DNA from: Raja brachyura | Lineage: Eukaryota | NCBI GenBank assembly: GCA_963514005.1 | Contig: OY740781.1 | Location: 163,308,001 to 163,372,000, forward strand | Length of the DNA: 64,000 nt | Direction of reading: 5' to 3' | The notes under the pieces: model-generated | The model's database searches: none | Told to the model about the DNA's origin: nothing | Seen by the model: only the letters and a program-made list of their open reading frames with translations | Shown: in pieces, positions 2,041-62,290 of the stretch | Layout of the letters: every line of letters begins with the position of its first letter | Position numbering within the stretch: the stretch's first letter is position 1 | Program-made: the position numbers and the translations under genes

Positions 2041-2500
2041 CGGCCTAGAGGAGAGTCCCGACCCGAAACGTCGCCTATCCAATCCCTCCACTTATTCTCC
2101 CTCACCCACTGAGTCACTCCAGCGCTTTGTGCTTTGCTCTGAAGATAGACACAAAATGCTGGTGTAACTCGGCGGGACAGGCAGCAACTCTGGAGTGACA
2201 TTTTCGGGTCGAGACCCTTCTTTGGATTTTAGTTTGCTCTGTGTTTTGTTCTGTCGGTCTAAAACGAAGACAAAGATTATGTTTGGACAAACACGGAACT
2301 GCAGATGCTTGATTTACAAAGAAAAATAGACAAACTGCTGGAGTAACTGGCTGGGCCAGGCAACATCTCTGGAGTACATGGATAAGTAATGTTTCGGGTC
2401 GGGATCCTTTTACATACTGTCCGAAGAAGAGTCCAAGACGGAAACATCTCCTATTCATTTTCTCCAGAGATGCTGCCTGGCCCGTGCAATTACTCCAACA
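2041..2500. mobile_element. Cluster of degraded hammerhead-bearing Penelope-like short repeats in both orientations
   Basis: Diverged matches to the family motif GACCCGAAACGTC...GCTGAGTTACTCCAGC on both strands; 2295-2500 is a head-to-head pair. Confidence 0.65.
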
Positions 2501-3510
2501 ATTAGTATATGGTGTAAGTTCATTTTCCTTCCCTTAGCTAGGGATGTTTCCCCTCTGTTTTGGGTTTCAGTATCTGACCATATATCCATTGAGCCTTCAT
2601 ATTGCTACTCATTTCCAACATTGCTCGGGGCAATCAGTAATGTTGCTTATCCATCCAGCCACGATTTATAGGGTTAATATCATAAACTGTGTCATCTAAG
2701 GTCATAACTGCGAATGATCTTATTTAGGGTTGGAAACTGTCATTCGGTTGATCAAATAGACAGAACAAAGTGGAAATTGAAACGAGACGATCTCCCGAGT
2801 TCAAGTACACCACATACTACGTATTGGCATATTTTGTTTCCAAAGTCCAGCGTAAGACTTGGGAAAACGATATGATGATCCCAGTGCGCGCCTCTGTAGG
2901 ACTGCGCCCGCAAGATTAAGTATTTCGCTTTGAACAGAAGGGCTTTTTTTTTTCAATTTCGGAAATGCGATCCCGGACGAATGCAAGCGCTTTGCTCGCA
3001 GTGACAGTTACAATATCTGTAGACGTGCTCAGGAAGTGACAGTGGTTGAGTGAAATGCTGAAATATCATCAAAGCTGATGCTGCCGCCTCTGCCTTGAAA
3101 CACCAACATGTCGAAAGATCTGTTCTTTGAGCAACACAGAGCTTATCTTTCGGTCACATAGGTTGCAAATTTGATTAATTTTGTTAAACTGTAATCGTTG
3201 CCAGCGGCAGGACTTTAATCCGGAAATTCTACGATTACAAAGTTCGCACCCTGAGTTGTAAGTCAGGGCCCGGCGCAGTTACGGCGCTGCAGCGGCTGCA
3301 GGTAATGATGGAGCCTTAGAAATGCAGAAAATATTCAACAATTCACGGGGAACAGTAGGAATAAACAGCATTATAATACCGGGCTTGTGAACATCCTGCT
3401 CGCATTAAAACACGCTTAAAGTCAATGACCATGTGCAAGTATGGTTCGTTGCGATGGACATAGGCATCGCTATTGCTCACGATTCTCTAGTAGATTGTAT
3501 GTTTCATGTT

Positions 3511-4096
3511 GTGTAGGAAGGAACTGCAGATGCTGGATGAAACCGAAGATAGACTCAAAATGCTGGAGTAACTCAGCGGGAGAGGCAGCATCTCTGGAGA
3601 GATGGAATAGGTGACCAGGGAAGCAGGGTCTCGACCCGAAACGCCACGTTGTAAAATTGTAAAAATTGTAAAAGTCCTGGACAAGCTAGATGCAGGAAAA
3701 ATGTTAGCAATGTTGGGCGAGTCCAGAACCAGGGGGCCACAGACTTAGAATAAAGGGGAGGCCATTTAAGACTTTTTCACCCAGGGAGTTGTGAATTTGT
3801 GGAATTCCCTGCCACAGAGGGTAGTGGAGGCCAAATCACTGGATGGATTTAAGAGAGAGTTAGATAGAGCTCTAGGGGCTAGTGGAATTAAGGAATATGG
3901 GGAGAAGGCAAGCACGGGTTATTGATTAGGGACGATCAGCCATGATCACAAAGAATGGCGGTGCTGGCTCGAAGGGCCGAATGGCCTCATCCTGCACCTA
4001 TTTTCTATGTTTCTATGGATCTATGCCACCTATTCCCTCTCTCTAGAGATGCTGCCTGACCCGCTGAGTTACTCCAGCATTTTGCATCTATCTTCT
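3511..4096. mobile_element. Palindromic Penelope-like repeat interrupted by a CR1 3' fragment
   Basis: The repeat halves lie at 3511-3647 and 4025-4096. The flanking direct repeat TGTATGTTTCA is at 3496-3506 and 4096-4106. Confidence 0.7.
3652..4016 (+). mobile_element. CR1-clade LINE, 5'-truncated 3' end
   Basis: Close paralogue of 5440-5816 (end of ORF2, 3' UTR GGCTCGAAGGGCCGAATGGCCT, TTCTATGT tail). GCCAC occurs near both junctions (3643-3647, 4025-4029). Confidence 0.9.
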
Positions 4097-4512
4097 GTAT
4101 GTTTCAAGTGTATTACTTCAGTTGGTTGTCGAAAATGAGATGCCAAAACACAATCAATATTCTATTGAGCACGAAAAACAATGTTTCCAAACCGTTCGGA
4201 CTAGGACAAAAGGAGAAAATAAATGCTTGTATTTAGGAATGATTTGATGGCGCTAAGGCTCCTTGTTTAGGTTTAGACACAAAATGCTGGAGTAACTCAG
4301 CGGGACAGACAGCCTCTCTGGAGAGAAGGAATGGGTGACGTTTCGGGTCGAAACCCTTCTTAGGTAGGGCGGATAGATAAATACAGATCGCAGAATATAG
4401 TTCTCAGCACTGTAGTTTAACAGTTACAGAGACAGTCCGCAAAAGTCCAAAGTCCGAAATGGGGTGACGATCTTACGGAAGGGTCGTTCAGAAGCCGGAT
4501 AACATTGGACTG

Positions 4513-60156: not shown

Positions 60157-60185
60157 ATCGTTGATACATGGTTACTCCTGAATTG

Positions 60186-60455
60186 TTTAGTTTAGTTTAG
60201 AGATGCAAGCATGGAAACAGACCCTTCGGCCCACCGAGTCCGCACCGACCAGCGACCACCCGGACTCTAGTCCTATCCTGAACACTAGGGACAATTTACA
60301 GAAGCCGATTAACCTACCAACCAAAGGCACGTCTTTGGAATGTGTGTGGAAACTGGAGCCCCCGGAGAAAGCCCACGCGGTCAAAGGGAGAACGTGCAAA
60401 CTCCACACTGACAGGTCAGGATCGAACCCGAGCCTGCTGCTGTAAGGCAGCAACT
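60186..60455 (-). mobile_element. V-SINE (HE1-like)
   Basis: Reverse complement of B box GGTTCGATCC near 60420, V domain, CR1-like tail and (TTTAG)n. Confidence 0.85.
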
Positions 60456-61082
60456 CCAAACCCAACGCCAGTGGAGAGCAGAAAGCGAAGCAACTACTCC
60501 AATTGACCAATTGAAAATATGATGTAGGGCCACGTTCCTGAAGTTCAATAAAATGGAAATTCAATTTAATATGTAGAGCAGGCAAGAAGGCTGCAGGGCA
60601 AGTCCCCCGCCTCCCCCCTGCAATAATAACATGTTATGAACCCGTGCGATTCTCTAGGCACATATACTTCATAATTATTTTCAAAAGCGCCAACATTTAA
60701 ATCCCTTTGCACACCATGCTGAAGACATCTGACGCGTGTGAGTAAATGGTCGGATTCCGGATGTGCGGACTAAATGGGATCGAAAGACAATGATACAATT
60801 AAGTAAGCTTTTTTCCAAGATTGCTGTAATTCTCCACGATTTTTGTGGCCATACCTCAGACAAAAGCTGTAATTCGCCACGTGGTAAACCAAGTGAGGTC
60901 ACCGCGCTTCTCCCTGCCTGTCCCGCCACTGTGCATGGTGCCCATTTTTATTTGGGACTACTGCATGGAGAGCACTGGATGTGTATTATATTTTGAATTG
61001 TTTACATAAAGACGCCAAAGGCAGGCCATTTGGGGCATCGAGACTAGGCTAGATTCCTGGGAAGCATTCGACGTAGAAGGCA

Positions 61083-62290
61083 TGTGTGGGAAGGAACTGC
61101 AGATGCTGGTTTACAACGAAGATAGACACAAACAGCTGGAGTAACTCAGCGGGACAGGCAGCATCTCTGGAGAGAAGGAATGGGTGTTGTCTGAGTTGGG
61201 TCTCGAGCCAAAACCCATTCCTTCTCTCCAGAGATGCTAGAGATACATAGAAGACTAGAGCATAAGAGTGGGCCCTTAAATGCACAATATCCATTCTGAA
61301 TATGATGCCATGGTAAATCAATCTCATTTGACTGCACCTGATCCATATCCCTTCATCCCTTGCATTTCTACATGCCTATCGTGAAGCCTGTTCAGCACCA
61401 CTAAACCCATCTGCCTCCACCAGACACCCCCCTTTCCCCCACAGTTACTTCCAGTCACCCACCAACATCTGTATTAAAAGACGCACCTTATATCTCTTTT
61501 AAAGTTTGCTCCACATTACCCACCACCATCTTTGTGAAAAAGTTGCTCTTTAGGTTCCTATGACATCTTTCCCCTCTCACCTTAAATTTATGTCCTCTGA
61601 TCTGATCTCCTAATCTGGGTAAAAGTCTGTGAATTCCCCCTACCTATTCCCCTCATTAATGTATGCACCTCTGCAAATTCGCCCCTAGTCTCCTGCGCTC
61701 CAAGGAGAAAAGTCCTAGCCTGTCAACCTCTTCTTATCTCAGGCCCTCAAATCCAGGAAACATATTTCTAAATCTTCTCTGCACCCTTTGCAGCTCATTG
61801 GCATCCTTCCTATGGTGACCAAAGCTGAACACAATACTCCAAATATATCCTCACCAACATCTACTACGACAGTAACATAGCAACCCAAATTCTATACTCA
61901 GTACCCTGACTGATGAAGGCCCATGTACCACATGCCCTCTTCACCACCCTGCCTGTGATGCCATTTTCAGGGATCTATGTTCAATGGTTCAATGGTACTT
62001 CATTGTTATATTTACTAAGTACAGTGAAATTCATTTTTTGCACACCATTCAATAAAAATCTTATTAGACATAGGCTCAATCATACGTAAATCCAAGTCTG
62101 TATGAATAGTAGATTACACTGAGGCAGTACACAAGATTACCTGCATTTCTAGATCCCTCTACTTTACAACACTCCCTAGAGCCCAGCTGTTCACTGGGAA
62201 GGTCCTGGCCTTTGGTCCTGGCCTGGTTAGACTTCCCAAAATGTAACACATTGTACTTATTTGCGTTAAATTCAATTAATCATTCTTCAG
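61083..62290 (-). mobile_element. Penelope-like palindrome followed by a degraded CR1 LINE
   Basis: Penelope-like unit at 61083-61238. The minus-strand CR1 remnant ~61255-62290 resembles 14104-14977 and 16603-17097. Confidence 0.7.

What the first reader, a model, noticed from the sequence alone, without database searches (positions are those of the whole stretch)
2041..61238. Dozens of short non-coding retroposons carrying a minimal hammerhead ribozyme core
Seen: the most abundant repeat in the window contains CTGAAGA-A-GGGTC-TC-GACCC-GAAAC-GTC. It is intact on + at 15797, 20258, 23712 and 26822, and on - at 7802-7829, 24905-24932 and 40944-40971. Loop-only variants occur at 23672 and 60027. 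This matches hammerhead CUGANGA, helix II, GAAA and a GUC cleavage triplet, with helix III shrunk to the palindrome ACGU. Monomers have 9-20-bp TSDs (7731, 20238, 23644, 31425, 34198, 40865) and fall into at least two subfamilies (A: GTCACCCATTCC; B: GTCGCCTATCTCC). Established: minimal type I hammerheads with a palindromic short helix III characterise the pLTRs of Penelope-like elements and are thought to work as dimers. Inference: this is a highly amplified non-autonomous, Penelope-derived (retrozyme-like) family with no ORF in this window.
Basis: partly seen in the sequence, partly recalled or inferred. Interest (0 to 1): 0.75.

Follow-up and report, generated by a model that had tools for sequence, protein, structure and literature searches.

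The report
Penelope retrotransposon stubs with minimal hammerhead
The 95-135-base repeats scattered through this window are the clipped ends of an intact Penelope-like jumping gene elsewhere in the same genome, each starting with a minimal hammerhead ribozyme motif; the kind is known, but the copies are unusually numerous and their ends record how the element copies itself.

Summary
The window has 54 pieces of the repeat (7.6% of its bases), 7 exact cores at the stated places, and all six named TSDs. The genome holds 50,608 exact cores and, by rough extrapolation, about a million pieces (about 4%).

So the stubs are best read as truncated products of autonomous elements, not a separate retrozyme family.

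Their 3' ends fall at two sites about 35 nt apart, the known PLE 'tail'. In 9 of 9 head-to-head pairs one arm ends at the first site and the other beyond it, and 7 of the 9 share one 14-18 bp TSD. 41 of 77 5' ends lie within 13 nt around the start of the hammerhead core. This may be the RNA's 5' end, but that is not shown.

The core is more conserved across subfamilies than the sequence behind it. Helix I is only 2 bp, however, and cleavage is untested. Known kind, striking scale.

The parts
2048..61239 (.). 54 dispersed pieces of the repeat, both strands, subfamilies A, B, D and older forms; 29 of them in close pairs
20254..20351 (+). Model subfamily-B stub: conserved CAGT edge, hammerhead core, pyrimidine stretch, hairpin, ending at RT start site 1; 16-bp TSD at 20238 and 20352; 94 of 95 nt identical to the autonomous pLTR
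20258..20287 (+). Minimal hammerhead: CUGAAGA 20258-20264, extra A 20265, helix II 20266-20269 with 20274-20277, GAAA 20278-20281, palindrome ACGU 20281-20284, predicted cut after 20285, 2-bp helix I (20256-20257 with 20286-20287)
   Evidence: sequence; numbering follows the min-HHR scheme of PMC4209133
7740..7836 (-). Subfamily-B stub ending at site 1, 9-bp TSD (7731, 7837), short duplicated piece at the 5' junction
23664..23803 (+). Subfamily-B insertion with two cores 40 nt apart (partial tandem), 20-bp TSD with one mismatch at 23644
34212..34298 (+). Subfamily-B stub starting inside the core (+2), 14-bp TSD at 34198 and 34299
24832..25065 (.). Head-to-head subfamily-A pair joined at the CAG-N-CTG palindrome; tail on the plus arm only
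39685..39885 (.). Head-to-head subfamily-A pair; tail on the minus arm only
16234..16490 (.). Head-to-head pair; the minus arm carries about 30 nt resembling the upstream 3' UTR of EN-linked copies, the plus arm carries the tail
   Evidence: by eye
15691..15901 (.). Rearranged head-to-head subfamily-A insertion; intact core at 15797
26818..26915 (+). Subfamily-A stub, intact core, ending at site 1
31436..31566 (-). Subfamily-A stub with full tail (site 2), TSD at 31423 and 31565
40876..41000 (-). Subfamily-A stub, intact core, extra non-element bases at the 5' junction, TSD at 40865
60023..60155 (+). Subfamily-A stub with loop-2 variant and full tail
42168..42265 (+). Older subfamily-D stub with a short inverted piece at the palindrome

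Best explanation
The repeats are 5'-truncated insertions of the pLTR end (hammerhead to RT start site) of autonomous C-terminal-EN Penelope-like elements of Neptune/Nematis type, left by successive waves (D, A, C, B). Shown: the identity with the autonomous pLTR, the two 3' end classes, the sharp 5' edge, and the one-arm-per-site inverted pairs under a single TSD. Inferred from the in vitro work on the anole element (PMC11167929): the RT-EN protein nicks both target strands in a staggered way and primes cDNA inside the RNA, at site 1 (about +95 from C3) and at the tail end (about +130). One productive cDNA gives a monomer. Two give a head-to-head pair, usually joined at the CAG-N-CTG palindrome or by other microhomology. 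About 60% of cDNAs that reach the start of the hammerhead end there. My leading guess for why (about 45%) is that this is the RNA's own 5' end: an initiator-like Y-CAGT is conserved across subfamilies, so priming near the front of the mRNA can copy only 95-135 nt, and long copies need read-through or circular RNA. The hammerhead is a conserved passenger that probably cuts weakly or only with protein help, and the cut RNA is rarely the template. Almost all genomic stubs are dead copies.
For: Repeat 150-290 bp behind the GIY-YIG match on the same strand in 9 of 18 non-telomeric GIY-YIG loci and in 19 of 20 best RT-EN loci (16 B, 3 C). Six loci with a 1203-aa open frame, with DKG, YIDD, CX4CX2C and LIY-C-x2-C-x2-C-YIG plus two His. 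Layout pLTR, site 1, tail, ATG at +163. Window B copies 90/95, 94/95, 90/93, 92/93 identical. 4 of 30 A copies have EN sequence directly upstream. 3' ends: 43 at site 1, 30 at the tail end, 4 other, of 77. 5' ends: 41 at -8..+4, 11 at +5..+37, 1 at -9..-147, 24 further up. 9 of 9 head-to-head pairs are discordant (P 0.0017) and 7 of 9 have a 14-18 bp TSD. 27 of 40 copies holding the ORF start lose the match within 100 nt after it, so priming does occur near the ORF's 5' end. 1 of 77 begins at the cleavage site.
Against: The RNA 5' end is not shown: only contigs were available. The cap-G test was inconclusive. 9 of 16 ORF-start copies that reach the edge pass beyond it. One B haplotype is in 12 of 52 short and 0 of 25 long copies (Fisher P 0.007), which could mean a short master, although long copies of that haplotype exist (L089, L090, L283). 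No intact ORF was found for A, C or D. The 77 copies come from one 2.6-Mb stretch at the start of C1. No TSD was found around the 11 older window pairs (0 of 11, narrow search span).
Confidence: 0.82

Rival explanations
1. Same origin, but the 5' edge is an RT stop or template-switch hot spot, not the RNA's end. The tail can pair with the UGAAGAAGG strand and close a 135-nt domain whose base lies at the edge, and the CAG-N-CTG palindrome favours joining there.
For: The predicted fold pairs the tail with the core strand, and AGAUGCUG with CAGCAUCU; both blocks recur in all subfamilies. Many junctions are centred on the palindrome. The barrier is partial: 25 of 66 and 9 of 16 copies pass it.
Against: The fold is not better than shuffles (z -1.5; 15 of 200). 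Monomers with clean TSDs also end there without inversion. C(-4) and A(-3) are conserved although not needed for the 2-bp helix I.
Confidence: 0.4
2. The stubs are a self-propagating non-autonomous family (SINE-like or retrozyme-like) transcribed from short masters and moved in trans by the Penelope protein.
For: Uniform length, TSDs, and a large excess of short over long copies (51,713 against 11,046 exact matches). One haplotype is enriched in short copies.
Against: Sequence identical to autonomous pLTRs, and each tested subfamily has EN-linked long forms. No short tandem arrays among 54 window hits or 77 B copies. Stubs end at or before the tail, whereas the anole protein needed RNA beyond its start sites (PMC11167929).
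Confidence: 0.12
3. The conserved CAG is a 3' splice site of a pLTR intron, as in Drosophila virilis Penelope, and the edge reflects a splicing-related RNA end or block.
For: Pyrimidine-rich sequence followed by CAG just before the core in all EN-linked forms. In D. virilis the intron ends at the 5' side of helix I (PMC4209133; PMC2377424).
Against: By eye, none of the 5 copies starting at -1 carries an upstream exon piece; their upstream bases are target or TSD sequence. Splicing joins exons and leaves no free 5' end there.
Confidence: 0.1
4. The hammerhead motif is no longer a ribozyme in this lineage and is kept as a promoter or protein-binding element.
For: Helix I of 2 bp against 3-5 bp in most published examples. 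The active dimer fold is 13-26 kcal/mol above the dimer MFE. No two-sided compensatory change seen. No Rfam hit.
Against: All catalytic positions are kept across four subfamilies, and changes fall in loop 2 or at a CpG. D. virilis also has a 2-bp helix I. The anole hammerhead cuts only with protein, so free-energy models may mislead.
Confidence: 0.3

Closest known systems
Minimal hammerheads (min-HHR) in pLTRs of metazoan Penelope-like elements (Cervera and de la Pena 2014, PMC4209133)
   Same: CUGANGA core, extra nucleotide after A9, G10.1-C11.1 pair, palindromic helix III without loop, position in the pLTR, most copies single and probably truncated PLEs.
   Different: Helix I is 2 bp (4-5 bp in their main families, 2 bp only in D. 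virilis). At least 50,608 exact cores, against about 4,000 and 9,000 motifs in coelacanth and Xenopus.
Neptune/Nematis C-terminal EN+ PLEs (Craig et al. 2021, PMC8557442)
   Same: Single RT-EN ORF, DKG, CX2-5CxxC linker, CCHH, partial tandems, inverted 5'-truncated copies, 30-40 bp tail at one end only.
   Different: ORF is long (1191 aa, with a Pro-rich N-terminal stretch). No (TA)n targeting seen by eye in the loci read. Clade not fixed by phylogeny.
Poseidon element of Anolis, PAc (Frangieh et al. 2024, PMC11167929)
   Same: Two RT start sites bounding a tail downstream of the hammerhead, both target strands used, uncleaved RNA as main template.
   Different: There the ORF starts inside helix II; here the ATG is 163 nt after C3, so the stubs are wholly non-coding. 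PAc is of the Penelope/Poseidon clade, which lacks the Zn linker.
Non-LTR retrozymes of animals (Cervera and de la Pena 2020, PMC7229834; Li et al. 2026, bioRxiv 10.64898/2026.07.22.740005)
   Same: Non-coding, type I hammerhead, related to pLTRs, dispersed monomers.
   Different: Those are tandem repeats with a hammerhead in each unit (mostly 150-450 bp, canonical motifs, circular RNAs). Here units are 95-135 bp, single or head-to-head, and identical to an autonomous end.

Membership tests
min-HHR of PLEs | Conserved core CUGANGA / GAAA / NUH with an extra base after A9 and a G10.1-C11.1 pair | tested here: met
   invariant across four subfamily consensuses except a CpG-linked C17 change
min-HHR of PLEs | Helix III reduced to a palindrome allowing dimers | tested here: met
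   ACGU in all exact cores
min-HHR of PLEs | Helix I of several base pairs | tested here: inconclusive
   only 2 bp in A and B, also in autonomous copies; below most published cases, equal to D. virilis
min-HHR of PLEs | Located in the pLTR of a PLE | tested here: met
min-HHR of PLEs | Self-cleavage after GUC as a dimer or with protein | not testable with these tools
   no raw reads offered; folding energies unfavourable without protein
C-terminal EN+ PLE (partner) | Single ORF with RT and C-terminal GIY-YIG bearing CCHH | tested here: met
   motifs in the 1191-aa ORF; Pfam GIY-YIG over cut-off and weak RVT_1 in the 72%-identical L052 ORF
C-terminal EN+ PLE (partner) | pLTR, optional 30-40 bp tail, inverted 5'-truncated copies | tested here: met
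Neptune or Nematis clade | CX2-5CxxC linker before the EN | tested here: met
   CX4CX2C at residue 1058
Neptune clade specifically | RT phylogeny with named Neptune references | not tested
   the 120 listed homologues carry no clade name
Non-LTR retrozyme | Tandem repeat with a complete hammerhead in two or more consecutive units | tested here: not met
   2 tandem neighbours among 54 hits, one a 40-nt partial duplication; no short-unit arrays among 77 B copies; not screened genome-wide
Non-LTR retrozyme | Abundant circular monomer RNA | not testable with these tools
   contigs only
Independent non-autonomous family | Short copies descend from their own masters (private variants or ends) | tested here: inconclusive
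   no variant private to short copies; one haplotype enriched in short copies but also present in long ones

The most novel reading that the evidence does not exclude
The hammerhead occupies the first 30 nucleotides of the element's mRNA. Because the RT primes inside the RNA at two fixed sites about 95 and 130 nt from the cap, one site per nicked target strand, the default product of transposition is a short cap-proximal stub or a head-to-head pair. Full-length copies would need read-through or ribozyme-made circular RNA. That would explain why such stubs make up several percent of this genome, and would give a general account of PLE inverted repeats with a tail on one arm only.
Probability: 0.4. 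Interest if true: 0.65.

Novelty: new member of a known kind. Interest (0 to 1): 0.42.

Why it matters
The system itself is known: hammerhead-bearing pLTR fragments of Penelope-like elements. Two things give it value. First, scale: at least 50,000 perfect cores and roughly a million pieces, far above the published counts I read for minimal hammerheads. Second, the genome holds both an intact young element and tens of thousands of near-identical insertion products. Their ends match the two RT start sites found in vitro for the anole element and suggest one start site per target strand. How PLEs integrate, and what their hammerhead does, are open questions in the papers read; this family offers a large natural data set and an intact protein to test them.

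Tried and rejected
Rfam scan: no hammerhead family hit. tRNA scan: none, so no sign of a tRNA-derived SINE head.

The best GIY-YIG hits in the genome (a 760-aa family at contig ends) are not the partner: 0 matches to the repeat in 20 loci, and a different hammerhead-like motif.

Cap-G test for a transcription start. G before AGTC is as frequent as A and T together (3,188 against 3,285). But of 40 G copies, 17 were flagged as inversion junctions, 15 had no TSD, 3 had a TSD plus a single extra G, and 5 had longer extras. Inconclusive.

Test on copies holding the ORF start: 7 of 16 stop at the edge against 41 of 66 in ordinary copies (Fisher P 0.26). It does not separate a transcription start from an RT stop.

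Sequencing runs: only contigs, and 'RNA' is a guess. X1 and X2 show loose ends at the same edge (1940-1942 of L096); X6 and X12 gave one contig each. No evidence on expression, start or cleavage.

Covariation in helix II: only one-sided U-A to U-G changes in a few copies, none two-sided. Longer helix I from upstream UTR: not found in the folds. Spliced-cDNA signature: not seen by eye. TSDs around window pairs: 0 of 11. Homologue search gave no clade names.

Five near-identical composite loci looked like a non-autonomous master. They are one insertion carried inside another repeat.
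Full report
Observation. A loose pattern gives 13 matches and the exact 28-nt core occurs 7 times, at the seven stated places. A profile built from 12 window copies finds 54 pieces covering 4,871 bp (7.6%), with 0 in the reversed window. 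It is the most repeated sequence of the window. All six named TSDs exist: four by automatic search and two by eye. They are a minority feature, though: 4 of 25 isolated hits have one of 9 bp or more, against 5 of 300 random places. 29 of the 54 hits lie in close pairs, 11 head-to-head, 3 tail-to-tail and 2 tandem. Clustering 144 near-complete copies from the window and fetched loci gives four main subfamilies: B (39 copies, 3.6% from consensus), C (17, 9.7%), A (50, 11.8%) and D (23, 17.9%). The other 15 copies fell into five small clusters that I left out.

Scale. The window lies in a 2.70-Gb assembly. Exact-match counts over the whole genome are 50,608 for the core, 51,713 for a B-specific 38-mer, 15,379 for an A-specific 39-mer, 11,046 for the UTR just upstream of B and 674 for the ORF start; the reversed controls were 0 each. 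In 20 hand-spread 10-kb stretches there were 90 pieces in 17 stretches, 3.9% of bases. That extrapolates to 1.0-1.2 million pieces, a rough figure from 200 kb. The host was not determined. Two homeodomain exons and CR1-like and DIRS-like elements point to a vertebrate (gene and element names from recall), and I recall similar repeats from skates and rays, untested.

The partner. A GIY-YIG search of the genome led to 20 fetched loci. Two belong to an unrelated telomeric family. In 9 of the other 18 the repeat follows the endonuclease match by 150-290 bp on the same strand. A protein search from one of these loci gave 106 scored matches, six with a 1203-aa open frame. 19 of the 20 best loci carry the repeat behind the stop codon, 16 of B type and 3 of C type. 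The intact element reads: pLTR with hammerhead, site 1, a tail of about 35 nt, ATG 163 nt after C3, a 1191-aa ORF, a 3' UTR of about 230 nt, and the hammerhead again. The protein has DKG, YIDD, a CX4CX2C linker and the CCHH-type GIY-YIG, which marks Neptune or Nematis according to PMC8557442 (passages). 1,209 homologues were found, the best at 53% identity, none of the 120 listed with a clade name. The four window B copies match the autonomous pLTR at 90/95, 94/95, 90/93 and 92/93 positions. Of 30 consecutive A copies, 4 have endonuclease sequence directly upstream. No intact ORF was found for A, C or D, and the window has no Penelope ORF remnant.

Ends of the copies. I mapped 77 consecutive B copies from the first 2.8 Mb of C1, picked by a 38-mer that lies downstream of the ribozyme, so the pick does not depend on the 5' end. 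3' ends: 43 at site 1, 30 at the tail end, 4 elsewhere. 5' ends relative to C3: 41 at -8..+4, 11 at +5..+37, 1 at -9..-147, 24 further up. Three of the 24 stop at a poly-C tract, where my alignment may have failed. So 41 of 66 cDNAs that reach the hammerhead start end within 13 nt, and only 2 of 25 end in the next 140 nt. One of 77 starts at the predicted cleavage site. All 9 head-to-head pairs have one arm ending at site 1 and the other at the tail end (8) or beyond it (1); P is 0.0017 if arms were independent. Seven of the 9 are framed by one 14-18 bp TSD, one by 8 bp and one by none, so most are single events. In the window, a regular expression scored the tail on exactly one arm in 7 of 11 pairs; by eye on the same printout it is 10 of 11, with none on both arms. 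No TSD was found around these older pairs.

Mechanism. PMC11167929 (parts 1-2 of 4 read) shows for an anole PLE that both target strands are cut and extended, that RT starts inside the RNA at two sites bounding the tail, and that hammerhead cleavage needs protein and is dispensable for insertion. The genomic pattern here fits one start site per target strand; this step is inferred. For the 5' edge I favour the RNA's own end. Y-CAGT is conserved across subfamilies whose upstream UTRs differ and fits the initiator consensus (recalled). 27 of 40 copies holding the ORF start lose the match within 100 nt after it, which shows priming near the ORF's 5' end. Against this: the cap-G test was inconclusive; 9 of 16 such copies pass the edge; and in D. 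virilis the start lies further upstream, with an intron before the hammerhead (PMC2377424, passages; PMC4209133). A structural stop is nearly as likely. The tail can pair with the core strand, but the fold is not significant (z -1.5).

The ribozyme. Across the four consensuses the 28-nt core varies at 2 positions (loop 2, and C17 at a CpG where subfamily C is split 9 T to 8 C), against 24 of the next 66 (Fisher P 0.005). The subfamilies are related and were chosen by me, so the P value is generous. No two-sided compensatory change was seen. Helix I is 2 bp, also in intact elements. PMC4209133 (parts 1-2 of 4 and supplement part 1 read) reports 4-5 bp for its main families, 2 bp in D. virilis, and low activity even for dimers. 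The active dimer is 13-26 kcal/mol above the dimer MFE in four constructs. Cleavage is therefore plausible only as weak or protein-assisted.

Non-autonomous family? Retrozymes are defined as tandem repeats with a hammerhead in each unit (PMC7229834, passages; bioRxiv 10.64898/2026.07.22.740005, parts 1-3 of 5). That is not met here. No variant is private to short copies. One haplotype is in 12 of 52 short and 0 of 25 long copies, but long copies of it exist. I leave about 12% for short masters.

What is known. PMC4209133 already states that minimal hammerheads are widespread as single motifs probably related to truncated PLEs. PMC8557442 and PMC3846280 (passages) describe inverted truncated copies, palindromic junctions and a tail at one end; the latter explains the inversions by self-priming, a further rival I did not test. 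Paper searches listed no description of this family, of its copy number, or of one-site-per-strand priming in PLEs; I saw those results as listings only, apart from the papers named here. Repbase, Dfam and subscription papers were out of reach, and the closed supplements of the bioRxiv preprint, which sampled one cartilaginous fish, may list the family. Three earlier AI notes report similar stubs in other genomes; they are unchecked and not counted as support.

Verdict. A real and correctly seen feature; a new, very abundant member of a known kind. The end statistics are the part a specialist would want.

Noticed in passing
L051 (G000:C8:89350000-89359999); also L011-L030 and further hits near the ends of C1, C8, C15, C17, C19, C21, C23, C24, C31: A second, young Penelope-like family in tandem arrays near contig ends: a 760-aa RT + C-terminal GIY-YIG ORF preceded by a 602-aa ORF with a weak GDSL/SGNH match (E 0.0017), (TAACCC)n runs about 190 nt after the stop, and its own hammerhead-like motif upstream of the first ORF. 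PMC8557442 lists such telomeric runs for EN-minus PLEs only, and one search listed nothing on it. It may be more novel than the finding itself.
   Followed up: partly
L177, L192, L198, L208, L209: 5 of 40 loci hold the same head-to-head B insertion with the same flanks, so it is being amplified as cargo inside another young repeat.
   Followed up: partly
window 9228-13835 (-): DIRS-like element: gag-like ORF, RT (PF00078) and tyrosine recombinase matches, with repeated termini near 8663-8997 and 13932-14000.
   Followed up: no
window 35008-35688 (+) and 50307-50912 (+): Two homeodomain-coding exons in the same orientation, resembling HMX-type genes (name from recall).
   Followed up: no
window 4468-5712 (+), 14177-14989 (-), 26317-26814 (-): Fragments of non-LTR retrotransposon ORFs; RVT_1 match for the first, PF09004 match for the third.
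   Followed up: no
L097-L098 (G000:C18:46360000-46380000): Head-to-tail array of the B partner element with a 3,965-bp period, all units sharing one frameshift near the ORF start.
   Followed up: no
window 19411-19678, 22208-22472; 58847-59115, 60188-60456: Two other short interspersed repeats of about 270 bp, 3-4 copies deep in self-BLAST.
   Followed up: no
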